Shown piece after piece: positions 190 to 39,328 of a stretch of DNA of 40,060 nucleotides (position 1 is its first letter; each line of letters starts with the position of its first letter). Origin of the DNA: Escherichia phage IMM-002; the sequence record NC_048071.1, one strand, 5' to 3'. The position numbers and the translations under genes were made by a program. A model generated the notes under the pieces. That model did not search any database. It was not told where the DNA came from and saw only the letters and a list, made by a program, of their open reading frames with translations.

Positions 190-210
190 ATCTGTATCGA
201 CCTAATGTCA

Positions 211-305: not shown

Positions 306-519
306 ACACTATGTCGACCTTCAGTTTATCAGAGTCCTAAGGTCTTAGACTCATAGGTTATCACATCCGGTCCGTTTAGCAGTCAGAGACCATAGCTGAC
401 TAGGGTTATCGTTGTTGGTGTCTGCCAACCGGACTCTTATTATCCATAGTACAGACTTAAAGTCAATCATCTGTAGTCGTCCTTATATAGTCACTGTACT
501 ACTGTATAAATTACCAGTG

Positions 520-2720: not shown

Positions 2721-3142
2721 TGTGTAAGACCTGCGCTAAGTGTGGCGAGACCAAGAGTCTTGACCAGTTCGGCAGCAATAAGCGCAACAAGGATGGTCTG
2801 GACTATCGCTGCAAGACTTGCAGAAAGCAGGACGCCCAAGACAGGAGGCAGAAGGCACGAGAGGCCGGGACCTACAAGACGTCAAAGGCTGAAGAGAACC
2901 GAAAGCTGCGCTACGGTCTGGACCTAGAGGAGTACGAGAGCCTCCTACAGCAGCAGGGTGGAGTCTGCGCAATCTGCAAGGGTCAGTGTCCTACCGGGTG
3001 GAGACTGGCGGTGGACCACTCACACGAGACCGGGAAGGTGCGCGGACTGCTCTGCCTACAATGTAATACAGCGCTGGGCCAGTTCAAAGACTCACCGGAA
3101 CTACTGGCAAACGCAATCAAATATCTTCAGGAGAATCAATAA
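2720..3142 (+). CDS. HNH / Endonuclease VII-family nuclease (putative free-standing homing-type endonuclease)
   Basis: 140 aa; N-terminal Cys4 zinc ribbon (CKTCAKCGETK...YRCKTCR) plus GGVCAICKG...LAVDHSHETGKVRGLLCLQCNTALGQF, the Endo VII/HNH signature. Confidence 0.7.
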   Translation: MCKTCAKCGETKSLDQFGSNKRNKDGLDYRCKTCRKQDAQDRRQKAREAGTYKTSKAEENRKLRYGLDLEEYESLLQQQGGVCAICKGQCPTGWRLAVDHSHETGKVRGLLCLQCNTALGQFKDSPELLANAIKYLQENQ

Positions 3143-3496: not shown

Positions 3497-6178
3497 ATGA
3501 GCGTCATCTCAATTGACAAGCACGACTTCTCTGATGTGTCGAATGCAATCGAACCATTCAACGTGCTGGCTGACCACTACGGTCAGGACCTAGCAGTAAA
3601 ACAGCTTCAGCTTGAGCATGAGGCGTACACTGAAGGCGAGCGACGTTTCATCAAGAACCTTGAGCGCCAAGCTGAGCGCGGGGAGCTGGCAGACAATCAG
3701 GTCGCCAAGCCACTGATGCAAACTCTGGTCCCGACCATCGCCAAGGCTGTTCGTGAGTGGCACGAAGGCCCGGACGGTAAGTCCTCGACCTCTCGCCCAA
3801 GCGTAGCGTTTACCATGCTGAGCACTGACGAGAAGGCTGTCAAAGACCGCTCTCTGCGAATCTCTGCTGAGTCTGCTGCGGTCATCATACTGAAAGTCAT
3901 CCTCAGCAAGCTGGTCAAGCCTGAGGGAATCCCGATAACGCCGATGGCCTCCGCGATTGGTCGCACACTTGAAGATGAAATCCGCTTCGGTCGCATCCGT
4001 GAGCAGGAGCAGGAGCACTTCAAGAAGACCATAGCTGAGAATCTGAAGAAACGTGCAGGAGCAAGCTACAAGAAAGCCTACATGCAAGCGGTCGAAGCCT
4101 CCATGCTGGAGCAAGGGCAACTGGCTGACGCTTGGGGGACTTGGAGTCCGACCGAGGCGGTACACGTAGGCATCAAGATGCTGGAGCTGGTCATCCAGTC
4201 CTCGCAACTGGTCGAACTGAAGCGCTACGGTGCGGGTAACGCTGCGGCAGACGTCGAGATGGTCCACCTGTCAGACTTCTGGGTCAAGAAGATGTCGCAA
4301 CGTGGCTTCTCACTGGCTGGCATCGCTCCGGTCTACCAACCTTGCGTCGTTCCACCTAAGCCGTGGACCGGGGTCGTGGGTGGTGGGTACTGGGCTAAGG
4401 GCCGAAGACCTCTCCCGCTGATTCGCTTAGGGTCCAAGGCTGCGGTCCAGCGCTACGAAGACGTGTACATGCCTGAAGTCTACGAGGCAGTGAATATCAT
4501 CCAGCAGACACCTTGGAAGGTGAACAAGAAGGTGCTGGACGTGGTGAACATGGTCGAGAAGCTGAACAACACGCCTATCGCTGACATCCCTCAGATGGAA
4601 CCGATGAAGCCTGAGGACTATGCAGGTGAGACCGAGGAAGAACTCAAAGCGTGGAAGAAAGCCGCTGCTGGTATCTATCGACGCGAGAAGGCCCGACAGT
4701 CCCGCCGTTTGTCCCTGAGCTTCATCGTCGGACAGGCGAACAAGTTCTCTCAGTTCAAGGCCATCTGGTTCCCATACAACATGGACTGGCGCGGTCGAGT
4801 CTATGCGGTCCCGATGTTCAACCCTCAGGGTAACGACATGCAGAAGGGCCTGCTGACTCTGGCAGTAGGCAAGCCAATCGGTGCGGACGGCTTCAAGTGG
4901 CTGAAGGTCCACGGTGCAAACTGCGCTGGTGTCGATAAAGTCACCTTCGAGGAGCGCATCAAGTGGGTCGAAGACAACCACGACAACATCCTCGCGGCTG
5001 CTAAGAGTCCGATGGATAGCATTGACTGGTGGGGTCAGTTAGACTCTCCGTTCTGCTTCCTCGCGTTCTGCTTCGAGTATGCTGGAGTCATGCACCACGG
5101 GCTGAGCTACTCCTGCTCACTGCCTATCGCGTTCGATGGGTCCTGCTCTGGGATTCAGCACTTCAGCGCGATGCTTCGTGACCACGTTGGTGGACATGCG
5201 GTCAACCTGACGCCAAGCGGGAAGGTCCAAGACATCTACCGCATTGTGTCAGACCGGGTGGAAGAACAGCTTAAGGAGCTGCTGGTCAACGGAAGTGACA
5301 ACGAGGTGAAGACCTTCGAGGACAAGAAGACAGGCGAGATTACTGAACGTCTGGTCCTTGGAACTCGCGAGCTGGCCCGTCAGTGGCTGACCTACGGGAT
5401 GTCACGCTCGGTCACTAAACGCTCGGTCATGACTCTGGCCTATGGGTCGAAGGAATACGGGTTCGCGGACCAAGTGTTTGAGGACACCGTGATGCCAGCG
5501 ATTGACAGCGGCAAGGGCGCGATGTTCACGGACCCAAGCCAAGCGTCACGCTTCATGGCTAAGATGATTTGGGATGCGGTAAGCGTGACCGTAGTTGCTG
5601 CGGTAGACGCGATGAAGTGGCTGCAAGGCGCTGCTAAACTGCTGGCTGCTGAGGTCAAGGACAAGAAGACAAAAGAGGTCCTTAAGCCTTGCCTCCCGGT
5701 TCACTGGGTAACGCCTGATGGCTTCCCGGTCTGGCAGGAATACCGAAAGAAGGACACCACCCGTCTGAACCTCCTGTTCCTTGGGTCGTTCAACCTGCAA
5801 CCGACAGTCAACAAAGGGTCTAAGAAAGAGCTGGACAAGCACAAGCAGGAGTCTGGTATCAGCCCTAACTTTGTACACTCACAGGACGGCAGTCACCTGA
5901 GGAAGACTGTGGTCCACACCCACCGCAAGTATGGCGTGATGTCCTTCGCAGTGATTCACGATAGCTTCGGGACCATCCCGGCTGACGCTGAGTTCCTGTT
6001 CAAGGGTGTCCGTGAGACGATGGTTGAGACCTACCGCGACAACGATGTGCTGCAAGACTTCTACGAGCAGTTCGCAGACCAGCTTCATGAGAGCCAGCGC
6101 GACAAGTTGCCCGAGCTGCCGAAGCGCGGTAAACTGAACATCGAAGACATTCTGTTATCTGACTTTGCATTCGCCTAA
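3497..6178 (+). CDS. 1: Single-subunit DNA-directed RNA polymerase (T7 gene 1 type)
   Basis: 893 aa from ATG 3497 (AAGGA RBS; track ORF opens at 3452); collinear with T7 RNAP incl. PWTGxxGGGYWA, AIWFPYNMDWRGRVYA, FCFLAFCFEYAGV, SGIQHFSAMLRD, HDSFGT and C-terminal SDFAFA. Confidence 0.97.
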   Translation: MSVISIDKHDFSDVSNAIEPFNVLADHYGQDLAVKQLQLEHEAYTEGERRFIKNLERQAERGELADNQVAKPLMQTLVPTIAKAVREWHEGPDGKSSTSRPSVAFTMLSTDEKAVKDRSLRISAESAAVIILKVILSKLVKPEGIPITPMASAIGRTLEDEIRFGRIREQEQEHFKKTIAENLKKRAGASYKKAYMQAVEASMLEQGQLADAWGTWSPTEAVHVGIKMLELVIQSSQLVELKRYGAGNAAADVEMVHLSDFWVKKMSQRGFSLAGIAPVYQPCVVPPKPWTGVVGGGYWAKGRRPLPLIRLGSKAAVQRYEDVYMPEVYEAVNIIQQTPWKVNKKVLDVVNMVEKLNNTPIADIPQMEPMKPEDYAGETEEELKAWKKAAAGIYRREKARQSRRLSLSFIVGQANKFSQFKAIWFPYNMDWRGRVYAVPMFNPQGNDMQKGLLTLAVGKPIGADGFKWLKVHGANCAGVDKVTFEERIKWVEDNHDNILAAAKSPMDSIDWWGQLDSPFCFLAFCFEYAGVMHHGLSYSCSLPIAFDGSCSGIQHFSAMLRDHVGGHAVNLTPSGKVQDIYRIVSDRVEEQLKELLVNGSDNEVKTFEDKKTGEITERLVLGTRELARQWLTYGMSRSVTKRSVMTLAYGSKEYGFADQVFEDTVMPAIDSGKGAMFTDPSQASRFMAKMIWDAVSVTVVAAVDAMKWLQGAAKLLAAEVKDKKTKEVLKPCLPVHWVTPDGFPVWQEYRKKDTTRLNLLFLGSFNLQPTVNKGSKKELDKHKQESGISPNFVHSQDGSHLRKTVVHTHRKYGVMSFAVIHDSFGTIPADAEFLFKGVRETMVETYRDNDVLQDFYEQFADQLHESQRDKLPELPKRGKLNIEDILLSDFAFA

Positions 6179-9756: not shown

Positions 9757-10455
9757 ATGGCTAAAGAGCAACTGAAAACTTTCACCACTCCGGTCGCTGG
9801 TCTGGTCGAGCCGTATAGCTGGCTGAACAAGTCAGACACCAAGTTCAACGAGCGTGGTGAGCACAAAGTCAACCTGACGTTCGACCTGAGCGACCCGAAA
9901 GTTCGCAAGATGATTGACGTCTTGCAGAAGATTCACGACGATGCGTATGCGAAAGCACTCGCAGACCACGAGAAGAACCCCCCTCAGGTTCAGCGTGGCA
10001 AGAAGCCTATCGAACCGCGTGAAGGCGATATGCCGTGGATTGAGAACGGTGATGGTACTGTTACCCTGAAGTTCAAATGCTTTGCGTCTTACTTGAAAGA
10101 CGGCAAGTCCGAGCCTATCGTATTACGGTTCTACGACACCGATGCTAAACTCATCCGTGACGTCCCGAATATTGGCACCGGGTCTAAGCTGAAAGTCAAG
10201 TTCAAAGTCCTGCCGTTCAAGTGGAACGCTGCGACTGGTGCAAGCGTTAAGCTGCAACTCGAATCCGTTCTGCTGGTCGAACTCAAAGAGTGGTCCGGCG
10301 ATGGTACTGGTGGTGATGGTGGCTGGGGTGACGATGAAGACATCGGCTCCGGTGGCTACAAAGCGTCTACTGACGGTGACTTCGGGTCTGATGACTTCGG
10401 TGAAGATGCCGATGGTGGCGATGACTCTGCGTCCGGTGGCGACTACGACTTCTAA
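9757..10455 (+). CDS. 2.5: Single-stranded DNA-binding protein
   Basis: 232 aa; GKKPIEPREGDMPW, NGDGT, KFKCFASY, WNAATGASVKLQLESVLLVEL and acidic C-terminal tail ending DYDF, as in T7 gp2.5. Confidence 0.95.
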   Translation: MAKEQLKTFTTPVAGLVEPYSWLNKSDTKFNERGEHKVNLTFDLSDPKVRKMIDVLQKIHDDAYAKALADHEKNPPQVQRGKKPIEPREGDMPWIENGDGTVTLKFKCFASYLKDGKSEPIVLRFYDTDAKLIRDVPNIGTGSKLKVKFKVLPFKWNAATGASVKLQLESVLLVELKEWSGDGTGGDGGWGDDEDIGSGGYKASTDGDFGSDDFGEDADGGDDSASGGDYDF

Positions 10456-10457
10456 TC

Positions 10458-10910
10458 GTGGCTGCATGGACACCAAAACGGGGGCACTCTGTGGGTGCCT
10501 ACCGCTCTGGACTTGAGGCCAAGAACCAGCAGTGGCTGGAACAGAACGGCGTCAAAGCGGAGTACGAAAGCCATTATATCAACTATGTGATTCCGGCTTC
10601 CGACCACAAGTATACACCAGACTTCATCCTTCCGAATGGCATCATCGTCGAGACCAAAGGTATCTTCGACAGTGAGGACCGCAAGAAGCATATGCTGGTG
10701 CGCGAGCAGCACCCTGAGCTGGACATCCGGTTCGTGTTCTCGTCCTCCCGCTCCAAGCTGTACAAAGGGTCGCCGACCACGTATGGCGCATGGTGCGAAA
10801 AGAACGGCTTTAAGTTTGCCGACAAGTTTATCCCGGTTGAGTGGCTGAAAGAGGCGACTGTACGTCTGCCTTCCGGTATACTCATCCCGAAGAAAGGAGC
10901 TAAGAAATGA
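10458..10910 (+). CDS. 3: Endonuclease I (Holliday-junction resolvase)
   Basis: 150 aa, GTG start; YRSGLE, YTPDFILPNGIIVETKG, DRKKHMLVREQHPELDIRFVFSSSRSKLYKGSPTTYG, KFADK collinear with T7 gp3. Confidence 0.95.
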   Translation: MAAWTPKRGHSVGAYRSGLEAKNQQWLEQNGVKAEYESHYINYVIPASDHKYTPDFILPNGIIVETKGIFDSEDRKKHMLVREQHPELDIRFVFSSSRSKLYKGSPTTYGAWCEKNGFKFADKFIPVEWLKEATVRLPSGILIPKKGAKK

Positions 10911-21907: not shown

Positions 21908-22957
21908 ATGGCAAACGTACCGGGTCAGAAAATTGGTCAGAACCAAGGTAAAGGCAATACCAATACCGACCAGCTCGCACTGTTCCTGAAGGTCTTCGCT
22001 GGTGAAGTCCTGACCGCTTTCACTCGTCGTTCCGTTACTGCTGACAAGCATATTGTCCGCACCATTCAGAACGGTAAGTCCGCACAGTTCCCGGTCATGG
22101 GTCGCACCTCTGGTGTGTATCTGGCTCCGGGTGAGCGCCTGAGCGATAAGCGCAAGGGCATCAAACACACCGAGAAGGTTATCACCATTGATGGTCTGCT
22201 GACCGCTGACGTGATGATTTTCGACATCGAAGACGCTATGAACCACTATGACGTGGCTGGCGAGTATTCCAACCAGCTCGGTGAAGCTCTGGCCATCGCT
22301 GCTGACGGTGCGGTACTGGCTGAGATGGCGATTCTGTGTAACCTCCCGGCTGCATCGGATGAGAACATCGCTGGTCTGGGCAAAGCGTCCGTACTGGAAG
22401 TTGGCACAAAAGCTGACTTGAACACTCCGGCCAAACTTGGTGAAGCAATCATCGGTCAATTGACCATCGCTCGTGCTCGTCTGACTTCCAACTATGTTCC
22501 CGCTGGCGACCGTTACTTCTACACCACGCCTGACAACTACTCTGCGATTCTGGCTGCTCTGATGCCTAACGCTGCTAACTACGCTGCGCTGATTGACCCT
22601 GAGACTGGCAACATCCGTAACGTAATGGGCTTCGTTGTGGTTGAAGTTCCGCACCTGACTCAGGGTGGCGCTGGTGAGACCCGTGGTGATGACGGTATCT
22701 CCATTGCTTCAGGTCAGAAACACGCATTCCCAGCGACTTCCAGCACTACCGTTAAGGTCGCTCTGGACAACGTTGTGGGCCTGTTCTCTCACCGTTCTGC
22801 TGTGGGTACTGTTAAGCTGCGTGACTTGGCGCTGGAACGTGACCGTGACGTCGATGCTCAGGGCGACCTGATTGTCGGTAAGTACGCGATGGGTCACGGT
22901 GGTCTGCGTCCTGAAGCAGCAGGCGCACTGGTTTTCACAGCGGCGTCAGCGGGTTAA
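21908..22957 (+). CDS. 10A: Major capsid protein (10A)
   Basis: 349 aa; TNQGKG, LALFLKVFAGEVLTAF, GKSAQFPV, HTEKVITIDGLLTADV, EDAMNHYDV, SAILAALMPNAANYAALIDPE, NVMGFVVVEVPHLT, HRSAVGTVKLRDLALER, KYAMGHGGLRPEAAGA nearly identical in pattern to T7 gp10A. Confidence 0.97.
   Translation: MANVPGQKIGQNQGKGNTNTDQLALFLKVFAGEVLTAFTRRSVTADKHIVRTIQNGKSAQFPVMGRTSGVYLAPGERLSDKRKGIKHTEKVITIDGLLTADVMIFDIEDAMNHYDVAGEYSNQLGEALAIAADGAVLAEMAILCNLPAASDENIAGLGKASVLEVGTKADLNTPAKLGEAIIGQLTIARARLTSNYVPAGDRYFYTTPDNYSAILAALMPNAANYAALIDPETGNIRNVMGFVVVEVPHLTQGGAGETRGDDGISIASGQKHAFPATSSTTVKVALDNVVGLFSHRSAVGTVKLRDLALERDRDVDAQGDLIVGKYAMGHGGLRPEAAGALVFTAASAG
22930..22936 (+). other. Candidate -1 programmed ribosomal frameshift heptamer G-GTT-TTC
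   Basis: Heptamer lies in the 10A frame 21 nt before the 10A stop; the -1 frame is open from here to 23220. Confidence 0.5.
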
Positions 22958-23220
22958 CGACCTTTAAGGCCCTCTCTACAGAGGGTCCTTCCTTAGAGAC
23001 TTACAGTTCTACGGTGGGGACCAGCTTGAAGGTTGACTTCCCTGAGCTTTCAGACGTTACCGATTGGTCGCTGCTTGAGGTGACTACGCCTGATGGTGTT
23101 AGTTACTCCCGTAGAACCAACAGTCTCTACTTCAAGGCCACCTCTGGCGTGGAAGGTCTGGTGATTGTTGGGTATGACGGTTCGCCTGTGCGTTCCTTCA
23201 ACGTATCTTTCACAAACTAA
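22936..23220 (+). CDS. 10B: Predicted C-terminal extension of minor capsid protein 10B (reached by -1 frameshift from 10A)
   Basis: -1 frame open for about 95 codons past the slip site and ending just before the terminator; no independent RBS for the 68-aa track ORF 23014..23220. Confidence 0.5.
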   Translation, partial: HSGVSGLTTFKALSTEGPSLETYSSTVGTSLKVDFPELSDVTDWSLLEVTTPDGVSYSRRTNSLYFKATSGVEGLVIVGYDGSPVRSFNVSFTN

Positions 23221-23858: not shown

Positions 23859-26213
23859 ATGCCACTTATTACGCAATCAATAAAGAACCTTAAGGGTGGC
23901 ATTAGCCAACAGCCTGACATCCTGCGGTTCTCTGACCAAGGTGAGGAGCAGGTCAACTGCTGGTCATCCGAGAGTGATGGCCTACAGAAGCGACCTCCGA
24001 CCGTCTGGAAGAAGAGACTCCAGATTGACGTAGGGTCAGCCCCTAAGTTCCACCTGATTAACCGAGACGAAGTGGAGCAATACTACATCGTCTTCAATGG
24101 GTCGAACATTCAGGTCGTGGACCTTGAGGGGAACCCCTATGCTGTCTCCGGTGATATGGGCTACGTGCAGACCAGCAACCCAAGGGATGACATCCGGGTT
24201 ATCACGGTAGCAGACTATACGTTCATCGTTAACCGCAAGATGGTCGTTCGGGCAGGGACCGATAAGTCTCATCCGGGCTACAACACGAAGAACCGGGCGC
24301 TGATTAACCTGCGTGGTGGTCAGTATGGTCGAACACTGAAGGTAGGAATCAACGGTGGAGTCAAGGTGGAGCACAAGCTGCCGAATGGAGCTAACGCCGA
24401 GGAGGACCCTCCTAAGGTCGACGCACAGGCCATTGGTGCGGCCCTGAGGGACTTACTGGTAGCGGCTTACCCGAACTATACGTTAGCCCTTGGGTCCGGC
24501 TACCTGACTATTACAGCACCTGTTGGGACGGAAATCACCTCAGTCGAGACCGAGGATGGATACGCTAACCAGCTCATCAACCCGGTGCTGGATACAGTCC
24601 AGACAGTTTCTAAGCTGCCTCTGGCTGCACCTAACGGCTACATCATCAAGATTCAGGGAGAGACCAACAGTAGCGCCGATGAGTATTTCGTGGTGTATGA
24701 CTCCAACACAAAGACGTGGAAGGAGACGGTAGAGCCGGGGACCGTGATTGGATTTGACAATCAGTCCATGCCACACGCTCTGGTCCGTCAGGCCGATGGG
24801 TCATTTGACTTCAAGGAGATGGAGTGGTCAGGACGTGGGGCTGGCAACGATGACACCAACCCGATGCCGAGCTTTGTTGACTCAACCATCAACGACGTGT
24901 TCTTCTACCGAAACCGTCTGGGATTCCTGTCTGGTGAGAACGTCATCATGTCCCGCTCTGCCGGATACTTTGCGTTCTTCCCTAAGTCGGTGGCGACCCT
25001 CAGTGATGATGACCCGATTGACGTGGCTGTGAGTCACCCTAGAATCTCCATCCTGAAGTATGCTGTGCCGTTCAGCGAGCAGTTGCTACTGTGGTCCGAC
25101 GAGGTGCAGTTCGTGATGACCAGCTCTGGAGTCCTGACCGCTAAGTCCATCCAGCTTGACGTTGGCTCTGAGTTCGCTCTGGGGGATAACGCTCGACCAT
25201 TCGCTGTGGGACGCTCAGTCTTCTTCTCAGCACCGCGCGGGTCGTTCACCAGCATTAATCGTTACTTTGCGGTGGCTGACGTCACTGACGTGAAGGATGC
25301 TGACGACACCACTGGTCATGTATTGTCCTACATCCCTAACGGAGTGTTTGACATTCAGGGGACCGGGACGGAGAACTTCATAGTAGTGAATACCTCTGGT
25401 GCCTACAACCGGATGTACATCTACAAGTTCCTGTTCAGGGATGGAGTACAGCTTCAGGCTTCATGGTCTCACTGGGAGTTTGAGCCTAACGAGCGAGTAT
25501 TGGCGTCCGCTGCTATCGGGTCAACCGTCTACATCGTTAAGCAACACTCTCAAGGTGTGGACATTGAGCACCTGAAGTTCATCAAGGAGGCCACGGACTT
25601 CAGAACCGAGCCGTATCGACTCCACGTCGATTCTAAGGCTACCATGCAGATTCCTACGGACAGCTATAACCCTGAGACGTTCGTCACTCTGGTGAACATT
25701 GGGAACGCCTACGGTGGCAATGCTCCACCACGGGGTAACTACTTCCTGATTGATTCTCAGGGTGCCTATACGTCTCTTGGTCTTCTGGACGGTCAGACTC
25801 TGGTCAACCTGAAAGGGGATTGGTCAGGACGTGAGGTATTCATTGGCCGCTCCTATAACATGCGCTACAGGTTCTCTCGCTTCTTGATTAAGAAAGAGGA
25901 CGACTCTGGGGTGCAGACTGAGGACACCGGGCGTCTACAGCTTCGTCGAGCTTGGGTGAACTATCAGGACACTGGCGCTCTGCGACTGACGGTCTCCAAC
26001 GGTCAGCGTGAGTTCGTCAACATCCTGAACGGGTACACCTTGGGTCAGCAGACTTTAGGCACCAGCAACATCGGTGACGGTCAGTTCCGCTTCGCAATGA
26101 ACGGTAACGCGATGACCACAAGTCTTGTCCTTGAGTCCGACTATCCGACCCCAGTGTCCATCGTGGGGTGCGGCTGGGAGGCTTCATACGCTAAGAAAGC
26201 GCAACGAGTCTAA
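23859..26213 (+). CDS. 12: Tail tubular protein B
   Basis: 784 aa, size and position of T7 gp12 (794 aa). Confidence 0.9.
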   Translation: MPLITQSIKNLKGGISQQPDILRFSDQGEEQVNCWSSESDGLQKRPPTVWKKRLQIDVGSAPKFHLINRDEVEQYYIVFNGSNIQVVDLEGNPYAVSGDMGYVQTSNPRDDIRVITVADYTFIVNRKMVVRAGTDKSHPGYNTKNRALINLRGGQYGRTLKVGINGGVKVEHKLPNGANAEEDPPKVDAQAIGAALRDLLVAAYPNYTLALGSGYLTITAPVGTEITSVETEDGYANQLINPVLDTVQTVSKLPLAAPNGYIIKIQGETNSSADEYFVVYDSNTKTWKETVEPGTVIGFDNQSMPHALVRQADGSFDFKEMEWSGRGAGNDDTNPMPSFVDSTINDVFFYRNRLGFLSGENVIMSRSAGYFAFFPKSVATLSDDDPIDVAVSHPRISILKYAVPFSEQLLLWSDEVQFVMTSSGVLTAKSIQLDVGSEFALGDNARPFAVGRSVFFSAPRGSFTSINRYFAVADVTDVKDADDTTGHVLSYIPNGVFDIQGTGTENFIVVNTSGAYNRMYIYKFLFRDGVQLQASWSHWEFEPNERVLASAAIGSTVYIVKQHSQGVDIEHLKFIKEATDFRTEPYRLHVDSKATMQIPTDSYNPETFVTLVNIGNAYGGNAPPRGNYFLIDSQGAYTSLGLLDGQTLVNLKGDWSGREVFIGRSYNMRYRFSRFLIKKEDDSGVQTEDTGRLQLRRAWVNYQDTGALRLTVSNGQREFVNILNGYTLGQQTLGTSNIGDGQFRFAMNGNAMTTSLVLESDYPTPVSIVGCGWEASYAKKAQRV

Positions 26214-26237
26214 CTTATTGATTGGCCTATAGATTCA

Positions 26238-26260
26238 CCTTAACTATCACTATAGGGACT
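26238..26260 (+). promoter_or_regulatory. Phage RNAP promoter (phi13-equivalent)
   Basis: CCTTAACTATCACTATAGGGAC, +1 about 26255; leader shares TACTTTAAGAGGAGACTTTA with the 18007 promoter leader. Confidence 0.85.
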
Positions 26261-26299
26261 ATAGGCCCTTTAAGTTATAATACTTTAAGAGGAGACTTT

Positions 26300-26770
26300 A
26301 TGTATATTCGTAAAGCTACGGAATCAGATGTCCACTACTTTCTCTGGCATCTTTCAGCAGATGATGTTAATGAATGCAAAGCAAACTACGGGTCAACCGT
26401 AGGTCTCTCTGAAAGACTGCTTAAGCATTTATCTCCGTCATCTGTGGTTTTAACGAACGGTGTAGGCGAAGTGTTTGCCTATGGCGGGAACCAAGGGGAC
26501 AACGTATGGTTCTTGACTTCAGGTCAGGTCTACAAGCTGAGACCTAAAGAGAAGAGAGAGTTCATAAAGCGTATCTCTGAGTACAGGGACTTAATGTTAG
26601 ACCAATACGGGACCATCTGGAACTACGTGTGGTCAGGCAATAAGTCTCACATTAAATTCTTGAAGTTGCTGGGCGCTAAGTTTCACCCTGAGGTGACTAT
26701 CAGTCCGGTAACTGGTGAGCGTTTTCAACTATTCACAATCTCTAAGGAGGACGTATGTGCGAACCCGTGA
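26300..26770 (+). CDS. Internal virion protein at gene 13 position
   Basis: 156 aa from ATG 26300 (AGAGGAG RBS; track ORF opens at 26222 through the promoter); lower GC than neighbours; positional assignment. Confidence 0.5.
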   Translation: MYIRKATESDVHYFLWHLSADDVNECKANYGSTVGLSERLLKHLSPSSVVLTNGVGEVFAYGGNQGDNVWFLTSGQVYKLRPKEKREFIKRISEYRDLMLDQYGTIWNYVWSGNKSHIKFLKLLGAKFHPEVTISPVTGERFQLFTISKEDVCANP

Positions 26771-27342
26771 GCATTGGTATGGGCATCATGGCAGTAGCCG
26801 GGGCCGCTATGTCCGCTTCGAGTCAGGCGAAAGCTGAGGGTGCCGCCATTGACGCTCAGAACCGACAGGCTCAGGAGATGATTAAGCAGATGAACTACTC
26901 TGATGTCAACCTGAAGATGCAGGAGCGAGACCTCAAGGAACAACAGGTCGCTGAGCTAACCGAGACGACTCTGAACGGTATCCGTAATCAGGGTATGGTA
27001 CGAGCTGCTGTAGCTGAGTCTGGACTTGAAGGCAACTCCATGGACCGCATTGAGCGGGACGTAGAGGGGCAGACAGTCAAAGAGCGTGCAGGTATCACCG
27101 AGAGCTATGGCCGTGACTATGCGGCTATCTTCGGGAACCGTATTTCCAACATTGAGAATACCAAGTCCGCTATCAAAGGTCAGGGTAAGATTCTCAAGAC
27201 CAGCCCACTGGCTCATGCGCTTAATGTGGCGAACGCCGGGATGCAAGGGTACGCAATGGGTAACTCAATCGCTGGTGCCTCTCCGTCTCAGGGCGCAGCC
27301 CCAATTAGTGCTGCTAAAGGCACACCTACAGGTCATAGCTAA
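26755..27342 (+). CDS. 14: Internal virion protein A
   Basis: 195 aa; ESGLEGNSMDRIER and YGRDYAAIFG align with T7 gp14 (ESMLEGSSMDRIKR, YRRDYQAIFA). Confidence 0.85.
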   Translation: MCEPVSIGMGIMAVAGAAMSASSQAKAEGAAIDAQNRQAQEMIKQMNYSDVNLKMQERDLKEQQVAELTETTLNGIRNQGMVRAAVAESGLEGNSMDRIERDVEGQTVKERAGITESYGRDYAAIFGNRISNIENTKSAIKGQGKILKTSPLAHALNVANAGMQGYAMGNSIAGASPSQGAAPISAAKGTPTGHS

Positions 27343-27353
27343 CAGGAGGACCA

Positions 27354-29636
27354 ATGGCTAGTAATATCGAATCAGCATTAGCTAACCGGACTATGGGCCG
27401 TGGTCGCGCTCCGGGTAAAGCTATCAGTCTGGACTATCAGGCTGCAAACGTACAGGGGCAGACCGGGGACTCTGGTCTTGCCAAGGCGCTCACGGACTTC
27501 GTGTCCACTGGCGCTGGCGTCTACAAGCAGTTTCAGGAGAAGGCCAAGAGTCTCGGAGACGAAAGGTCCAACGAGATTATTCGTAAGCTGACTCCTCAGC
27601 AGAGACGTGACGCCATCCATAATGGGACACTCCTGTATCAGGACGACCCGTATGCGATGGAGGCTCTGAGAGTCAAGACTGGTCGCAACGCTGCCTATGC
27701 GGTAGACGATGAGATTAACGTCAAGATTCAGAACGGTGAGTTTCGCACTCGTCAGGACATGGAGGAGTACCGCCACCAGCGACTGCAAGATGCCGCTAAG
27801 TCTTATGCGGAAGAGGCTGGGATTAACCCGGCAGATGAACACTTCCAGCGTGGATTTAACGCAGACATCACCGACCGTAACGTAGCCATCTACGGGTCGT
27901 TCAATAAGTATTTCTCTAAGCAGTCCGAGAATACCGCTATGCTGAACACCCGTGTCGAGCTGAACTCGTTCCTGAATGACGGGGACCTGATGCGGTCGCC
28001 CGAGGCTGGCAAGTCGTTCATGGCTTACATGCGTGATGGCCTGACCACTGCTGCCATCCCGTCTGACCAAAGGGCGACTGAAGTCATCACCCAGACGGTA
28101 CGTGACGCAATCCAGAAGTCCGGTGGCTCCAACTTCCTACAGCAGGTACGAAACGAACGCATCACGCTTAACGGTGTGGACGCGACAGTCGAGGAGATTG
28201 TTGGACCTGAGGTATTCAATGCTGCAATGATTGAGGCCCAAGGCACCGAGTACAAGCTGGTAGCCAAGTATCAGGAAGACTTGTCGCTTGGCGTTCAGTC
28301 TGCGATGCTTCAGGATGACCCGACCATCGGTCTGGCTCAAATCCAGAAACTCAAGGCTCAGAACAACCAGCTTCAGCCGGGTGAGGAGATGACGCCCCAA
28401 CGTCAGATGCTTATCAACGCCGAGGCCAGCCTCTTAGAGTCCGTGAAGCGTAAGTCTGCTGAACAGGCGAAGGAGAACACTAAGCTCATCCAGACGCAGA
28501 ACAAGCAACTGGTCATTGACCAAGTGTACCAGCGTCGACTGAATGGCGACAACGTGTCCACCAACTATGAGGACCTCCCGGTCTCTGAGGCTACTGGTGA
28601 GTTCAAGCGTTCGGACATGAACAACTACGCTATGGGTAAACTCCAGCAAATCGACCAGATGGACATCCCGCAAGCTGCGAAGGATGCTCAGAAGGTGGCG
28701 CTGCTGCGAGCTGACACCAATAACGGTCCGTTCCGTAACGCCTTCCAGACGCTGACTCAAGATGCTGCTGGTGAGTGGCAAGCTGCCGTCATCCGTGGTC
28801 AGTATGACCCAGACAAGATGCAGCGCTTCGAGTCTCTGCGTAAGGTCTATACTCAGGACCCTTCCAGCTTCGCGGCTCTCTACCCTGACCAAGCCTCTCT
28901 GTTCACTACTTTCGAGCAGATGGACAAGATGGGTCTGGACCCTCAGACGATGATTGACGCTGACAAACAGGCTGCAAGCCAGTCCCGTGAGATGCGCATT
29001 GAGTCTGACAAGGCGTGGCAAGAGCTGAAGAACGACTCGAAGAACAAGGACCTCTCGCGGCTCCCGACGAGTCTGGACGCAAGTGCTCGTAAGGTCTGGG
29101 ACTCATGGTATTACCGTACAGGTAACGCTGATGCGGCGACCCAGAACACCCAGAAGTGGCTGAACGAGAACACCGTGACTTTCAGTGACGAAGGTCAGGA
29201 CGGTAAGTCCATCGGCATGGTGTCCAAACATCAACTTATGGTAGGGGATAACCCTGAGTCATGGCAGGTGGGTCGAGACATTATCGACACCGCTCGTCAA
29301 CAGCTCATCAAGACTAACCCTTGGGTCGTGAACTCTCAGCTCTCCGTAGTTGAGCAGAACGGCTCGGTCTTCCTTCAGGACGCTACCGGGACTATTCGTA
29401 TTCGATACGATAAAGAGCTGGTAGGCAAACTGTACCGTGAACAGCAGAAGCAAGCCGAGGATAAAGCCTACGCTGAGGCCGAACGTAAAGCCAACACCCG
29501 CGCTCGCATTGTCGAGACTAAAGCGGCTGGCGATAAGCGTCGTAACGAGCGTGAAGCTAATATCCAGAAACGGGGCGGTATGTACAAAGACGTATCGCTG
29601 GAGGGTATCGCAAACACCTTAATCGGTAAGGAGTAA
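27354..29636 (+). CDS. 15: Internal virion protein B (core protein)
   Basis: 760 aa; DERSNEIIRKLTPQQRRDAIHNGTLLYQDDPYAMEALRVKTGRNAAY almost identical to the T7 gp15 N-terminal region. Confidence 0.95.
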   Translation: MASNIESALANRTMGRGRAPGKAISLDYQAANVQGQTGDSGLAKALTDFVSTGAGVYKQFQEKAKSLGDERSNEIIRKLTPQQRRDAIHNGTLLYQDDPYAMEALRVKTGRNAAYAVDDEINVKIQNGEFRTRQDMEEYRHQRLQDAAKSYAEEAGINPADEHFQRGFNADITDRNVAIYGSFNKYFSKQSENTAMLNTRVELNSFLNDGDLMRSPEAGKSFMAYMRDGLTTAAIPSDQRATEVITQTVRDAIQKSGGSNFLQQVRNERITLNGVDATVEEIVGPEVFNAAMIEAQGTEYKLVAKYQEDLSLGVQSAMLQDDPTIGLAQIQKLKAQNNQLQPGEEMTPQRQMLINAEASLLESVKRKSAEQAKENTKLIQTQNKQLVIDQVYQRRLNGDNVSTNYEDLPVSEATGEFKRSDMNNYAMGKLQQIDQMDIPQAAKDAQKVALLRADTNNGPFRNAFQTLTQDAAGEWQAAVIRGQYDPDKMQRFESLRKVYTQDPSSFAALYPDQASLFTTFEQMDKMGLDPQTMIDADKQAASQSREMRIESDKAWQELKNDSKNKDLSRLPTSLDASARKVWDSWYYRTGNADAATQNTQKWLNENTVTFSDEGQDGKSIGMVSKHQLMVGDNPESWQVGRDIIDTARQQLIKTNPWVVNSQLSVVEQNGSVFLQDATGTIRIRYDKELVGKLYREQQKQAEDKAYAEAERKANTRARIVETKAAGDKRRNEREANIQKRGGMYKDVSLEGIANTLIGKE

Positions 29637-33591: not shown

Positions 33592-36390
33592 ATGGCTAAA
33601 ACAACTATCACTCAGTTCCCTGCTGGTCAATCGCAGTATCGAATTGAGTTCGACTATCTGGCTCGACCTTTCGTCGTCGTAACGTTGGTGAACTCCGCCG
33701 ACCAGACGCAGAACAGGGTGCTGAGGGCTGGAGCTGACTATAGGTTCCTGAACCCCACCTTAATCGAGGTTATGATTCCACAGACAGGTTTCGATACCTT
33801 GCAAATTCACCGTCAGACGGACACCGAGCTGATTGTTGGTTTCAGGGACGGCTCAGTTCTTACAGCTAAGGACTTGACAAATGCAGAGCTTCAGGCCATT
33901 CACATCTCGGAAGAGGGTAGGGACCAGACTGTAGACTTAGCGAAGGAATACGCTGACGCTGCCGCCAAAGCGCGAAACGATGCCGAAGACGCCCGTGATA
34001 GCATCGAGCAGGTCATGAAGTCTGGACTGTACGGATACACTCTGGTTGAGGACTTCCAAAAAGGTGCCACATTGTCTCACCCGGCTGAGGCACTTCGCTG
34101 GACACTGCCTGATGGGACGGGAGAATACTACCGCTGGGACGGTGTGTTTCCAAAGGTGGTTCCAGCAGGGTCAACGCCCACATCAGCTGGAGGGGTCGGA
34201 GTTGGTGCTTGGGTATCTATTGGTGACGCATCTCTTCGAGGAAACCTAGCTAACCCAGCCTACGGTGACGGCCTTGTTGCTTCGCAGCTTCCTAACTCCC
34301 CGGTGGCTAGAACAGTCCATGATAAAATGCTAGAAGCTGTGAGCATTGCGGACTATATGGTTGGCGGTGATGTGGCTGGTGCGATAATTGGTGCCCTGTC
34401 CTCCACTGCTGGTCGGGTTAGTGTTCCTGCCGGGAATCACATAGCCACACCTTCCGCAGCGCAAGTGGCTGGCGTACTCTCTGCCCTAAGTAGGCTGAAC
34501 ATTAACGGGTCCTTAACGATTCGTCTCCCTAAGGGAAGGGTTAATCTATCCTCTCCGGTATTGGTGGAGCTGGACGGAGGGAATAACCTAAGCATTGAAG
34601 GACAGCCTAACGTCCCAGTAACCATTACAGGACAAGCGTCTGTCTCTGGGTCTGCTGGAAACTACCAAGTAACCCTTAACGTGTCCTCGACAGCCGGGGT
34701 CTCTGTGGGTGACTTCCTGCATACCAACCAAGCTACAGGCACAGGAGCATGCGACCTTCATCGCGGTGTTTGGGAGATTACCGCTGTTGGGGCAGGGTCT
34801 CTGACTGTCAGGAATACGTGCCAGCTCTCATCCTTCCCGGCTAACACCATAACCTCCAGCTCTAGCCGAGTGCTGACCTCAGTGCTCATGTTTGACCGCT
34901 GCGATGGGTTCATAGTGCCGTCCTCTGAAGTTGGTAACATGAGTAACTTTGTTATCGCAGGTAACTCAGACTCATACTGGAGGGCCTCGGCTGTGGGGAC
35001 TACCGAGCTGGGGACTCATGGTCTGGCTGTAGGCTCAAACACTGTAGCCGTGAACGGTAAGTCAGATAACGTTAACCCTCAAGGTAAGACGGGCGGTAGC
35101 GTGACTTTCGGTCAATACATGGGCGTCTCCGGGTTTGACCAGCAGGGCATTGTTACCGAGCTTGGTGGTAGCTTCTGGGGCGACTTTACTTGCTGCTGTA
35201 ACAACAAGAGACGCGGGTTCTACTCGTCAACTGCATCTGGCATTCGTGCTAAGCAGATTACGGCCAATGGTAACTATCTTGATGGGGTTATTGCGGATAT
35301 TGGCGGAGACATCTACTCGAGCTCTTCTAGCTGCGCCGCAGGTAACGGGTCCTCAGGCATAAGCGCTGCCCATAACGGTTCTGTGATATGGGACGCAGGC
35401 AAGGCCAGCTACAATAAGCTGAATGGTGCCAATGGGGTGGCGGGGGGCTTCCTACAGATGACTGGCTCAACGATGCAGGGTAACTTGGCCACTGGCGCTA
35501 ACCTAGCCTATGGTGCCATCCTCTACTGCGACAACTCCCAGATATCTTTAAACGGAACCTATGGCATTAACTGTCAGCTGGGCTCGGTTGTTCGTGGTCC
35601 TAACTGCACGTATATAGGGAATAACAACCAAGGCATTAGAGGCTCTTACAATGCGACCGTAACCTTTACAGGCTCTACATTCTCTGGTAACTCTGGCGGG
35701 GACTTCCTCTTTACCGCTATGTCTCTTGGCATCTTCGGGAACACTAATTACGGTGGGGATATTGTTGCCACGGACATTAAGTTAGTGAACCAGTCAACTG
35801 GCAAAGGTGTCCGTCTTACTGGGACCTCTGGTGGGGATAACATTGTTATGTCCTATGATGTCACGGGTAATGGGTCCTTTGTCGAGGGTTATAACTTCAG
35901 GTCTGGTGACGTTGGTATCTACCCATCGGATGATGCGGTTCGCAATATTGGACGACCAGCAAACAGGTTTAACATCGGCTTCTTTGCGGGAGGAACACAG
36001 TCTACGTCAGACGCTAGGCTTAAGGACCCTATCAGGGACTTTTCTGAGGCAGAACTCAAGGCGGCTGTCGCCTGTAGTAAATCCTTAGGATTCTGGACTT
36101 GGCTGGACGACGACAGCAAGCGCCTTCATGCAGGGACTACTGTTCAAAGAGTTCTAGAAATCCTAGAGGATAACGGGCTGGATTGGCGTGAGTATGGGTT
36201 CATCGGGTTTGACTCGTGGGAAGATGAGTATAAACCTGTCGTTGCGGAGATTGATGGTATGGAATACGAGACTGGCGAGGTTGTCAAGGTGGTTGAGGCA
36301 GGGTCACTGTGGCAGCTGCGTGACCAAGAGTTTGACAGATTCCTAATCCGTGGACTCTCCGCCCGACTCTCGGCTATCGAGAAGGACTGA
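33592..36390 (+). CDS. 17: Tail fibre / tailspike: T7 gp17-like N-terminal adaptor, Gly/Asn/Ser-rich beta-helix-like central domain, C-terminal intramolecular chaperone (peptidase S74-type) domain
   Basis: 932 aa; N-terminal about 150 aa resemble T7 gp17 ([33 protein letters not shown]); C-terminal [14 protein letters not shown]... fits the SDxRxK autoproteolytic chaperone motif of endosialidase-type fibres; codon usage distinct from rest of genome. Confidence 0.9.
36007..36387 (+). other. Predicted intramolecular chaperone / autoproteolysis domain within the tail fibre (cleavage expected at Ser806)
   Basis: SDARLKDPI motif beginning at codon 806 of the fibre ORF. Confidence 0.6.
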
Positions 36391-37451: not shown

Positions 37452-39211
37452 GTCAAGACTTAGCGGCGCGTCAGGCGCTTATGACTGCCCGTATGAAGGC
37501 AGACTTCGTGTTCTTCCTGTTCGTCCTGTGGAAAGCTCTGTCCCTACCGGTCCCGACTCGCTGTCAGATTGACATGGCGAAGAAACTATCGGCTGGGGAC
37601 AATAGGCGCTTCATCCTACAGGCGTTCCGTGGTATCGGGAAGTCCTTCATTACGTGTGCCTTCGTGGTCTGGAAGCTATGGAATAACCCGGACTTGAAGT
37701 TCATGATTGTGTCGGCCTCAAAGGAACGAGCCGATGCGAACTCCATCTTCATCAAGCGTATCATTGACCTGATGCCTCAGCTCCAAGAGTTGAAGCCTAA
37801 GCAGGGGCAGCGAGACGCAGTAATCAGCTTCGACGTAGGGCCTGCCAAGCCTGACCACTCACCTTCGGTTAAGTCCGTTGGTATCACTGGTCAGTTAACT
37901 GGTAGCCGTGCGGACATCCTGATTGCCGATGACGTAGAGGTCCCCGGTAACTCAGCGACTCAAGCTGCAAGGGACCGACTGTCTGAGCTGGTGAAAGAGT
38001 TCGACGCAATCCTGAAGCCGGGTGGTACGGTTATCTATCTGGGTACTCCTCAGACCGAGATGACCCTGTATCGTCAGCTTGAGGGTCGTGGTTACTCGAC
38101 TACCATCTGGCCAGCTCGTTACCCGCGTGATGAGAAGGACTGGAAGTCTTACGGCGACCGTCTGGCTCCGATGCTTCAGGCTGAGCTTGAGTCCGACCCT
38201 GAGGGCTACTACTGGCTCCCAACGGATGAGGTCCGCTTCGACGATGAGGACTTGAAGGAACGTGAGCTGTCCTATGGCAAGGCTGGCTTCGCTCTCCAAT
38301 TCATGCTCAACCCGAACCTTGGCGATGCCGAGAAGTACCCGCTGAAGCTGCGTGACCTTATCGTAGCGGACTTGGACCCTGAGTCTAGCCCTATGGTCTA
38401 CCAGTGGCTCCCGAACCTCCAGAACAAGCGTGATGACGTTCCTAACGTGGGACTCATGGGTGACACCTACCACACGTATCAGACTGTAGGTTCTGCTTTC
38501 AGTTCGTACACCCAGAAGATTCTGGTCATTGACCCTAGTGGTCGTGGTAAGGATGAGACGGGTTATGCGGTCCTGTATCAGCTCAACGGCTACATCTTCG
38601 TGATGGAAGCTGGTGGTATGCGCGGTGGCTATGAGGACTCAACGCTGGAGGCTCTGGCGAAGATTGGTCGCAAGTGGAAGGTGAACGAGTACGTCATTGA
38701 GGGTAACTTCGGTGATGGTATGTACCTCGAACTCTTCAAGCCTGTAGCGGCCCGTATTCACCCGGCAGCAGTGACTGAGGTCAAGAGCAAGGGTCAGAAG
38801 GAACTCCGCATCTGCGACGTTCTGGAGCCTATCATGGGGTCTCACCGACTCATCGTGAACTCCTCGACCATTGTGTCTGACTACCAGACTGCTGCTGACA
38901 AGGATGGAGTCCGTAACCCTATCTACTCTCTGTTCTACCAGATGACCCGTATCAGCCGTGAACGTGGAGCCTTGGCACACGATGACCGACTGGATGCTCT
39001 GGCTATCGGTGTACAGTTCTTCGTAGAGTCTATGGCTAAGGATGCCGTGAAGGGCCAGCGTGAAGTTACCGAGGAGTGGCTGGAGGAACAGATGGAAGAC
39101 CCGAAGAAGGGCTTTAAGTCCATCGAGACGGACTACTGGGCCAATGGGGTCCGGGTACAGTTCAATACAGATGATGACTTGGGCTTAGGGTCATACGTTC
39201 AGTTCCACTGA
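37448..39211 (+). CDS. 19: Terminase large subunit
   Basis: 587 aa with TTG start overlapping the 18.5 stop (N-terminus aligns residue-for-residue with T7 gp19); [134 protein letters not shown]. Confidence 0.96.
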
Positions 39212-39305
39212 CCTAATGAATAACTATGGGTGAATACTGCATGAATAAGCGGTTAGTAACCCATAGTTACTAGTGGTCTAACTCTATGATTCTAAAGGCT
39301 TTTGG

Positions 39306-39328
39306 ACTTAACTATCACTATAGGGAAG
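39306..39328 (+). promoter_or_regulatory. Phage RNAP promoter (phiOR-equivalent)
   Basis: GGACTTAACTATCACTATAGGGAAG, +1 about 39323. Confidence 0.8.

What the first reader, a model, noticed from the sequence alone, without database searches (positions are those of the whole stretch)
26300..26770. Gene 13 slot occupied by an AT-rich, possibly exchanged gene
The 156-aa ORF after the phi13-type promoter has visibly lower GC and different codon choice than the flanking gp12 and gp14 genes, and I cannot align it to T7 gp13 from memory. It could be a replaced internal virion or assembly factor.
Basis: seen in the sequence. Interest (0 to 1): 0.3.

Follow-up and report, generated by a model that had tools for sequence, protein, structure and literature searches.

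The report
Ordinary gp13 gene with swapped segment
The AT-rich gene after the phi13 promoter is a normal T7-type gene 13 (a GNAT-fold virion assembly factor). It is AT-rich in every related phage examined, and here more so because a 346-base stretch inside it was swapped in from a lower-GC relative, which is routine phage mosaicism.

Summary
ORF 26300-26770 (156 aa) follows a phage promoter and RBS. At 45.0% GC against 53.2% for the genome (z = -3.0), it is the most AT-rich gene in the window, and its synonymous codon choice is AT-shifted (z = -4.8).

The idea of a replaced, non-gp13 gene is refuted. It matches Pfam Phage_T7_Gp13 (E = 1e-41) and PHROG 308 (2e-45). It is 54% identical to T7 gp13 and 96% identical to gp13 of many Kayfunavirus (K1F-like) phages, and it sits between gp12 and gp14.

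Two things explain the composition:
- **Family trait.** Gene 13 has lower GC than its surroundings in all 12 genomes compared, the window included, and in 28 of 28 further Kayfunavirus loci (mean -5.8 points).
- **Allelic mosaic.** Positions 26320-26665 carry the allele of ~50-51% GC relatives (ST31 type, 96-98% identity). The flanks match the 53% GC phage Pisces. Inside the segment 115 of 116 informative sites side with ST31; outside, 763 of 884 side with Pisces (p = 1e-82).

So an exchange did happen, but it was orthologous and intragenic. The predicted structure (pLDDT 94.5) has a GNAT fold, which the literature already links to gp13. Interest is low.

The parts
23859..26213 (+). Gene 12 (tail tubular protein B / nozzle), upstream neighbour
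   Evidence: Pfam PF25675 Phage_nozzle, 1090 bits. GC is 54.0%.
26224..26267 (+). Stem-loop (GGCCTATAG ... CTATAGGCC) enclosing the phi13 promoter. It corresponds in position to the R13 RNase III site annotated over the phi13 promoter in T7M.
   Evidence: RNA fold of 26214-26300 gives -20.3 kcal/mol, z = -2.4 against shuffles. The T7M record annotates RNase III site R13 overlapping promoter phi13. RNase III cleavage here is inferred, not tested.
26239..26258 (+). phi13-type phage RNA polymerase promoter (CTTAACTATCACTATAGGGA)
   Evidence: One of 6 matches to the core against 0.14 expected. An invariant block is shared with the five other promoter copies. The position corresponds to the annotated T7 and T7M phi13 promoters.
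26287..26295 (+). Ribosome-binding site AAGAGGAGA of gene 13
   Evidence: Read from the sequence, 4 nt upstream of the ATG at 26300.
26300..26770 (+). Gene 13: a 156-aa gp13 orthologue ('internal virion protein A' / probable assembly factor) with a GNAT-like fold
   Evidence: Pfam PF11090 E = 1e-41. PHROG 308 E = 2e-45. 54% identity to T7 gp13. 96% identity to the gp13 cluster P0001 of 617 members. AlphaFold2 pLDDT 94.5. 221 PDB matches at E <= 0.001; the 50 best listed are all acetyltransferases.
26320..26665 (+). Intragenic mosaic segment (codons 8-122 of gene 13) carrying the ST31/K1F-type allele, 44.3% GC
   Evidence: Identity to Pisces drops from 91-98% to about 60% in this segment and returns to 100% at 26666-26759. 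Identity to ST31 rises from 63-84% to 96.5%. 115 of 116 informative sites side with ST31 inside the segment, and 763 of 884 side with Pisces outside it; Fisher p = 1.4e-82. 97 phage records match the segment at 95-99% identity, against 1 and 0 records for the two flanks.
26743..26751 (+). Ribosome-binding site TAAGGAGGA of gene 14, inside the 3' end of gene 13
   Evidence: Read from the sequence. Genes 13 and 14 overlap by 16 nt (26755-26770).
26755..27342 (+). Gene 14 (internal core protein B), downstream neighbour
   Evidence: Pfam PF24072 T7_gp14 E = 1.3e-45. PHROG 805 E = 1.3e-62. GC is 54.4%.

Best explanation
The ORF is the genuine gene 13 of a Kayfunavirus (a K1F-like T7 relative). It is transcribed from the phi13 promoter and translationally coupled to gene 14.

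Its product is a small GNAT-fold protein. By homology with T7 gp13 it acts in virion morphogenesis and is needed for infectious particles. It may be a pseudo-enzyme or a non-canonical acyltransferase, because the canonical acetyl-CoA motif A is absent.

Its AT-richness has two additive causes:
1. Gene 13 orthologues are AT-shifted relative to their own genomes throughout the T7 group, in both amino-acid composition and synonymous codon choice.
2. In this genome, codons 8-122 were replaced by homologous recombination with the allele that circulates in ~50-51% GC Kayfunaviruses. That allele has not adjusted to the 53% GC backbone.

Shown here: homology, synteny, composition statistics, mosaic breakpoints and predicted fold. 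Inferred: the function, the direction of transfer and the reason for the family-wide AT shift.
For: Homology and synteny:
- Family matches. Gene order gp12-phi13-gp13-gp14-gp15-gp16 is the same as in T7, T7M and Pisces.

Family-wide AT shift:
- Gene 13 GC is below local GC in all 12 genomes compared, the window and 11 relatives (differences -1.3 to -8.2 points).
- The same holds in 28 of 28 further Kayfunavirus loci (mean -5.8 points).
- Codon choice is AT-shifted in Pisces (z = -3.6), T3-type (z = -2.5), ST31 (z = -2.0) and T7 (z = -1.0).

Decomposition in the window:
- The amino-acid effect is -0.031 and the codon effect is -0.060. The same allele in ST31's own background has a codon effect of only -0.026.

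Mosaic:
- (p = 1.4e-82; breakpoints at 26314-26320 and 26665-26671).
- The segment is 97-98% identical to Enterobacter phages of 51% GC, whose flanks are only 53-83% identical to the window.
- Of the 12 differences from ST31 inside the segment, 8 are at third codon positions, which indicates recent shared ancestry.

Fold and function:
- pLDDT is 94.5 with GNAT topology. Foldseek gives probability 1.00 to SpeG, RimI, Naa10 and others.
- Literature: gp13 is necessary for infection and its location is undetermined (PMC8811829; PMC2696425). A GNAT link to T7 gp13 is already made in PMC6775973. The gp13 homologue is not named among the detected virion proteins in the passages of the phiPsa17 proteome paper that were read (PMC4517105).
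Against: - The direction of transfer is not proven. Pisces and L030 carry a third allele (about 70% identity), so Pisces may also be recombinant. Other 53% GC relatives (L025, SH4-type) carry an allele 83-84% identical to the segment.
- The cause of the family-wide AT shift is not established.
- No sequence-level GNAT match was found, and motif A is absent, so enzymatic activity is doubtful.
- No experiment on this protein exists; its function is transferred from T7.
Confidence: 0.9

Rival explanations
1. Non-orthologous replacement: the gene 13 slot was taken over by an unrelated, AT-rich gene (a different internal virion or assembly protein) acquired from outside the T7 group.
For: It is the lowest-GC gene in the window with a codon-choice anomaly. 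The N-terminal 46 residues do not align with T7 gp13 in BLAST.
Against: Pfam Phage_T7_Gp13 matches at E = 1e-41 and PHROG 308 covers the full length. T3-type, Dickeya, Klebsiella and Yersinia phage gp13 align over the full length at 40-46% identity, including the N-terminus. Thirteen columns are invariant across 33 gp13 sequences. All 104 database homologues but one carry PF11090; the exception (P0104) is a gp14 that matches only through the 16-nt gene 13/14 overlap.
Confidence: 0.01
2. No exchange in the window lineage. The window keeps the ancestral gene 13 allele, only Pisces and L030 replaced theirs, and the low GC is purely the intrinsic family trait.
For: Gene 13 is AT-shifted everywhere. 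Deficits of -7.4 to -7.8 points occur in other loci (L036, L025, L019). Pisces-type allele B is also found in the Ro45lw lineage, so Pisces could be the recombinant.
Against: The window's segment is 96-98% identical to phages whose flanks are only 53-84% identical to the window. Whichever lineage was the recipient, the segment has therefore crossed between sub-lineages. The sharp breakpoints lie inside the gene. The window's 3' end (26666-26770) is Pisces-type and differs from ST31-type, so the window's gene is itself a chimera. No database cluster is more than 96% identical over the full length.
Confidence: 0.07
3. The AT-rich, nucleotide-conserved segment is maintained by a constraint other than the protein, such as an embedded RNA element, an internal promoter or an overlapping gene.
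For: The segment is more conserved than its flanks among allele carriers: median identity 95.4% against about 92%, and minimum 90.7% against 67-79%. Its codon choice is unusual.
Against: There is no Rfam match at E <= 1. Consensus promoter and terminator signals do not exceed shuffled controls. No long alternative-frame ORF lies inside the gene on either strand. Differences between alleles are concentrated at third codon positions. Other alleles diverge to 60-70% nucleotide identity while keeping the protein family.
Confidence: 0.02

Closest known systems
Bacteriophage T7 gp13 (UniProt P03723; Pfam PF11090 Phage_T7_Gp13 / DUF2833; PHROG 308 'internal virion protein')
   Same: The window protein matches the family above the curated threshold. 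The gene sits between gp12 and gp14 behind a phi13 promoter, as in T7. It is 54% identical to T7 gp13 over the C-terminal two thirds, and shares the invariant residues D22, E25, G62, G63, W70, F71, N108, N114, H117, G125, A126 and F145.
   Different: It is 18 residues longer than T7 gp13. T7 lacks the segment around residues 36-46 (a short extra helix) and has a shorter C-terminal loop. The N-terminal third is closer to T3-type and Kayfunavirus gp13 than to T7.
gp13 of Kayfunavirus phages (ST31, PE3-1, K1F-type, Enterobacter phage vB_EholP_HHH)
   Same: Protein identity is 96%. Nucleotide identity over 26320-26665 is 96-98%.
   Different: The last 34 codons and the flanking genes of the window are of the Pisces type, so the window's gene is a chimera of two circulating alleles.
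GNAT (Gcn5-related N-acetyltransferase) superfamily, e.g. SpeG, RimI (5ISV/2CNM), Naa10
   Same: The predicted topology is the same, beta1-alpha1-alpha2-beta2-4-alpha3-beta5-alpha4-beta6-7. Foldseek gives probability 1.00 and TM-score about 0.6. There is a motif-B-like N-x-x-H-x-x-F-L-x-x-x-G-A at residues 114-126, and hhalign aligns residues 103-126, which contain it, with RimI 97-120.
   Different: No Pfam GNAT family matches at E <= 1. The beta4-alpha3 connection (GQVYKLRPKEK) lacks the Q/R-x-x-G-x-G/A pyrophosphate-binding motif. No activity is known.
Mosaic allele exchange by homologous recombination among T7-group phages
   Same: There is a short, sharply bounded tract of a different orthologous allele, with discordant similarity to two parental types. 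This is the pattern generally described for mosaic T7-like genomes (own knowledge).
   Different: Nothing unusual. The tract is small (346 bp) and lies wholly within one gene.

Membership tests
T7 gp13 family (Pfam PF11090 / PHROG 308) | Sequence match above the curated family threshold | tested here: met
   PF11090 scores 141.6 bits against a cut-off of 25, E = 1e-41. PHROG 308 gives E = 2e-45 over residues 1-149.
T7 gp13 family (Pfam PF11090 / PHROG 308) | Position between tail gene 12 and core gene 14, behind a phi13 promoter | tested here: met
   gp12 (PF25675) lies upstream and gp14 (PF24072) downstream. The promoter is at 26239-26258. The order is the same in the T7, T7M and Pisces annotations.
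T7 gp13 family (Pfam PF11090 / PHROG 308) | Small protein (about 136-172 aa) sharing the family's invariant residues | tested here: met
   The protein is 156 aa. Thirteen columns are invariant and 27 nearly invariant across 33 gp13 sequences from 8 or more genera, and the window protein has all 13 invariant residues.
T7 gp13 family (Pfam PF11090 / PHROG 308) | Required for infectious particles / morphogenesis | not testable with these tools
   Only literature statements for T7 are available. An amber or deletion mutant is needed.
GNAT acetyltransferase superfamily | GNAT fold (mixed beta-sheet with beta4/beta5 splay, alpha3 and alpha4) | tested here: met
   The AlphaFold2 model has pLDDT 94.5 and pTM 0.85. 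There are 221 PDB matches at E <= 0.001. The 50 best listed are all acetyltransferases, with TM-scores mostly 0.53-0.67. This rests on a predicted, not solved, structure.
GNAT acetyltransferase superfamily | Sequence-level match to a GNAT family profile | tested here: not met
   None of the 33 gp13 sequences matches any Pfam acetyltransferase family at E <= 1. A gp13 profile finds no PDB chain at E <= 1.
GNAT acetyltransferase superfamily | Motif A, Q/R-x-x-G-x-G/A, at the start of alpha3 (binds the acetyl-CoA pyrophosphate) | tested here: not met
   Residues 75-85 between beta4 and alpha3 read GQVYKLRPKEK; the family consensus is TSxxVxxLxxxxKREF. No such motif is present. This is by inspection of sequence on the predicted secondary structure.
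GNAT acetyltransferase superfamily | Motif B in beta5-alpha4 | tested here: inconclusive
   hhalign aligns gp13 residues 103-126 with RimI 97-120 in the expected register (N114 with RimI N107). Support is weak: E = 0.036, probability 1.4%. The RimI sequence was verified as PDB 5ISV.
GNAT acetyltransferase superfamily | Acyl-CoA binding and transferase activity | not testable with these tools
   Needs biochemistry.
Non-orthologous gene replacement in a conserved slot | The occupant of the slot is unrelated to the usual occupant | tested here: not met
   The occupant is a clear gp13 homologue.
Allelic mosaic (homologous recombination tract) | A bounded tract whose nearest relatives differ from those of both flanks | tested here: met
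   Inside the tract 115 of 116 informative sites side with ST31; outside it 763 of 884 side with Pisces; p = 1.4e-82. The pattern is replicated with L013-L024, L036 and L037.

The most novel reading that the evidence does not exclude
Gene 13 may be under an unrecognised, group-wide pressure. It is AT-shifted in amino-acid and synonymous composition in all 40 loci examined. One 44% GC allele is nearly fixed at nucleotide level across otherwise diverged Kayfunavirus backbones.

This allele could be spreading by gene conversion linked to the homing endonucleases that repeatedly insert at the gene 13/14 junction. The GNAT-fold protein might also be an active, non-canonical acyltransferase that modifies a virion component such as gp6.7.
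Probability: 0.12. Interest if true: 0.45.

Novelty: already known. Interest (0 to 1): 0.1.

Why it matters
It matters little beyond correct annotation. The gene should be labelled gp13 (a GNAT-fold virion assembly protein, PF11090), not a novel replacement.

The case shows that a strong local GC and codon anomaly in a phage gene can come from a family-wide compositional trait plus an orthologous allele swap, without any foreign gene.

Two minor open points remain. It is unknown why gene 13 is AT-shifted across the whole T7 group. It is also unknown whether the GNAT fold of gp13 retains any enzymatic activity.

Tried and rejected
- **ORF start.** The ORF listing reported the ORF as 26222-26770 (182 aa, TTG start). 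I rejected this because the extension runs through the promoter, and the ATG at 26300 has a strong RBS.
- **Frame error.** My first family scans used 26301 as the start and failed on frame. I repeated them with 26300.
- **RNA element.** I looked for an RNA family in 26000-27000 and found none at E <= 1.
- **Host-type signals.** I looked for sigma-70 promoters and intrinsic terminators; they were no more frequent than in shuffled sequence.
- **Solved structure.** I looked for a solved structure of a gp13 relative by sequence profile and found none.
- **Sequence-level GNAT membership.** There were no Pfam hits, and only a weak hhalign match to RimI.
- **Homing-endonuclease co-conversion.** I considered this as the cause of the swapped segment. 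The endonuclease genes sit at the gene 13/14 junction in some relatives. However, the window's tract ends about 90 nt before that junction and the junction itself is Pisces-type. The link is therefore unsupported for this genome.
- **Extra conservation of the segment.** I considered whether the segment is conserved beyond recent ancestry among allele carriers. The excess is only modest, 95.4% against about 92% median identity.

Full report
**What the window is.** The 40,060-bp window is a complete T7-like phage genome of the genus Kayfunavirus (K1F-like). It is identical to IMG/VR contig IMGVR_UViG_2974592685_000001. Its closest GenBank relative over 15000-39000 is Escherichia phage Pisces (94% identity over 86% of the query), followed by Enterobacter phages at about 90% and by Citrobacter and Cronobacter phages at about 87%. 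All genes lie on the + strand in T7 order.

- An ORF runs from the ATG at 26300 to the stop at 26768-26770 (156 aa). It is preceded by the RBS AAGAGGAGA (26287-26295) and by a phage promoter.
- The promoter core TCACTATAGGGA at 26247-26258 is one of six in the window, against 0.14 expected by chance. The six copies share an invariant CT-AACTATCACTATAGG-A block. They lie at the positions of T7 phi6.5, phi9, phi10, phi13, phi17 and phiOR.
- The promoter lies inside a stem-loop at 26224-26267 (-20.3 kcal/mol, z = -2.4). This corresponds in position to the RNase III site R13 that overlaps phi13 in the annotated T7M record.
- Gene 13 has 45.0% GC against 53.2% for the window, the lowest of all plausible genes. 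Against all 471-nt windows z = -3.0. The only other places as AT-rich are the non-coding genome ends, and the deepest trough of the genome (41.8%) is at 26197-26667.
- Codon choice is also unusual. With genome-wide codon usage, the protein's amino-acid sequence predicts 51.1% GC, the third lowest of 44 genes. The observed value is 45.1%, a codon-choice shift of -6.0 points (z = -4.8). Only the tail spike gene exceeds this, at z = -5.4.

**It is gp13.**
- The protein matches Pfam PF11090 (Phage_T7_Gp13) at 141.6 bits against a cut-off of 25 (E = 1e-41), and PHROG 308 ('internal virion protein') over its full length (E = 2e-45).
- The neighbours are gp12 (Phage_nozzle) and gp14 (T7_gp14).
- tblastn finds the protein in 1277 phage records, all at the gene 13 position where annotated. 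Identity is 93-96% in Kayfunaviruses, 62-65% for other Kayfunavirus alleles, and 40-46% over the full length in T3-type, Dickeya, Klebsiella, Yersinia and Erwinia phages. It is 54% over residues 47-149 in T7, and 27-33% in Pseudomonas, Vibrio and cyanophage relatives.
- Direct BLASTP against T7 gp13 gives 54% identity, E = 1e-35.
- In a 33-sequence alignment T7 lacks a short segment around residues 36-46.
- All 104 homologues from the large protein database but one carry PF11090 and no other domain; the exception is a gp14 that matches only through the gene 13/14 overlap. The top cluster (96% identity) has 617 member sequences.
- The hypothesis of a non-homologous replacement is therefore refuted.

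**Why it is AT-rich, part 1: a family trait.**
- In all 12 genomes compared (the window plus Pisces, T7, T7M, Ro45lw, Ninurta, KpV289, Pf1 ERZ, CHRF_10023.2, JSF31, ST31 and fPS16), gene 13 has lower GC than its surrounding region, by 1.3 to 8.2 points.
- In 28 further Kayfunavirus loci the difference is negative in all 28, with a mean of -5.8 points and a range of -2.6 to -7.8.
- The shift has two components. One is amino-acid composition: this protein is poor in Ala (3.8% against 9.1%) and rich in Ser, Tyr, His, Leu, Phe and Lys. The other is synonymous choice, which recurs in other genomes: z = -3.6 in Pisces, -2.5 in T3-type, -2.0 in ST31 and -1.0 in T7.
- I do not know the cause. Low expression with relaxed codon selection, or frequent exchange among phages of different GC, are untested possibilities.

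**Why it is AT-rich, part 2: a mosaic tract.**
- Against Pisces, identity is 91-98% through the end of gene 12 and the promoter. It collapses to about 60% from 26320 to 26665 and is 100% again at 26666-26759.
- Against ST31 (49.8% GC) the pattern is the reverse: 63-84% in the flanks and 96.5% in the tract.
- Over 24000-29000, at sites where Pisces and ST31 differ, the window sides with ST31 at 115 of 116 sites inside 26320-26665. It sides with Pisces at 763 of 884 sites outside (Fisher p = 1.4e-82). The breakpoints lie at 26314-26320 and 26665-26671.
- The same pattern holds against a dozen other ~50-51.5% GC Kayfunaviruses: tract 91-98% identical, flanks 53-89%.
- In GenBank, 97 records match the tract at 95-99% identity. 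Only 1 and 0 records reach that level for equal-sized flanks.
- Of the 12 differences from ST31 in the tract, 8 are at third codon positions, as expected for recently shared ancestry.
- The protein shows the chimera too. Residues 1-122 follow the ST31-type cluster, and the C-terminal 'FHPEVTISPVTG...' follows the Pisces type.
- The tract is 44.3% GC. In its native ~50% GC background its codon-choice offset is only -2.6 points, against -6.4 here. With a Pisces-type allele, gene 13 would be about 48.5% GC (z about -1.7). The swap therefore accounts for roughly 3.5 of the 8.2 points.
- The direction of transfer is inferred, not proven. Pisces and L030 carry a different allele that also occurs in Ro45lw. 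Other 53% GC relatives (L025, SH4-type) carry an allele 83-84% identical to the tract. More than one swap has therefore occurred in this clade.

**What the protein is likely to do.**
- AlphaFold2 with the 33-sequence alignment gives a confident model (pLDDT 94.5, pTM 0.85). Its order of elements is beta1-alpha1-alpha2-(alpha)-beta2-beta3-beta4-alpha3-beta5-alpha4-beta6-beta7.
- Foldseek against the PDB returns 221 matches at E <= 0.001. The 50 best listed are all acetyltransferases (SpeG, PA4866, RimI, Naa10, PA4794, AAC(6')-Ib), with probability 1.00 and TM-score about 0.6.
- At sequence level there is no GNAT Pfam match for any of the 33 family members and no solved relative.
- The beta4-alpha3 connection (GQVYKLRPKEK) lacks the Q/R-x-x-G-x-G/A acetyl-CoA motif.
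- A motif-B-like stretch containing N114, H117, G125 and A126 is invariant. It aligns weakly, in the expected register, with RimI 97-120.
- The link between T7 gp13 and a GNAT domain is already in the literature, together with its suggested role in morphogenesis (PMC6775973).
- Reviews state that gp13 is necessary for infection and that its location in the particle is undetermined (PMC8811829; PMC2696425).
- In the passages of the phiPsa17 virion proteome paper that I read, the gp13 homologue is not named among the detected proteins, although gp6.7, gp7.3, gp8 to gp12 and gp14 to gp17 homologues are (PMC4517105).
- From my own knowledge of the T7 literature (Kemp, Garcia and Molineux 2005, not held in the library), gp13 is required for gp6.7 to be incorporated into virions.
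- My best reading is that this is a GNAT-fold morphogenetic factor acting during assembly, most likely as a binding or scaffold-like pseudo-enzyme and less likely as a non-canonical acyltransferase. This is inference.

**Verdict.** The composition anomaly is real and statistically strong, but its explanation is ordinary. The gene is a bona fide, widely known gp13 orthologue. Its AT-richness is shared by orthologues across the group and is amplified here by a short orthologous recombination tract typical of mosaic T7-like genomes. Nothing in the locus is new in kind.

Noticed in passing
window 2720-3142 (+); L004 10446-10856; L037 4436-4846; L029 about 4253-4519: An endonuclease VII/HNH-type homing endonuclease gene sits between genes 13 and 14 in Ro45lw and Enterobacter phage vB_VIPECLMC06, with a remnant in L029. 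These copies are only about 38% identical to each other. The window has no such insert at the 13/14 junction but carries a paralogue (42% identity) in its early region at 2720-3142. The 13/14 junction looks like a recurrent landing site for these elements.
   Followed up: partly
window 22850-23200: A second mosaic tract lies at the end of the capsid gene region, covering the 10B frameshift extension and terminator area. Identity to Pisces falls to 59-81%, while identity to CHRF_10023.2 and Ro45lw is 90-96%, the reverse of the surrounding pattern.
   Followed up: no
window 24200-24900 (inside gene 12): Identity to Pisces drops to 71-85% in the middle of gene 12, and a run of 9 informative sites at 24413-24452 sides with ST31. 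This may be another small recombination tract or a variable region of the nozzle protein.
   Followed up: no
window 33592-36390 (gene 17, tail spike) and 3497-6178 (RNA polymerase): The tail spike gene has the strongest AT shift in codon choice in the genome (z = -5.4), consistent with a horizontally exchanged receptor-binding module. The RNA polymerase gene is GC-shifted (z = +4.5).
   Followed up: no
L010 (ST31, NC_047829) 10001-10489; L007 (Pf1 ERZ-2017) 10001-10435: The public annotations start gp13 late (ST31 at 10172, Pf1 at 10142). The full-length ORF that aligns with other gp13 proteins starts at 10001 in both loci. These are probable start-codon misannotations.
   Followed up: partly
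L009 (Vibrio phage JSF31) 9346-9978: This Vibrio T7-like phage has an extra 210-aa ORF between gp12 and gp13, annotated as 'proton/sodium-glutamate symport protein'. This shows that the gene 12/13 junction can accept insertions in other lineages.
   Followed up: no
window 205-348: A 47-aa ORF in the AT-rich left end (46% GC) is probably not a gene. The left end (67-437) and right end (39003-39308) are the only other places as AT-rich as gene 13.
   Followed up: no
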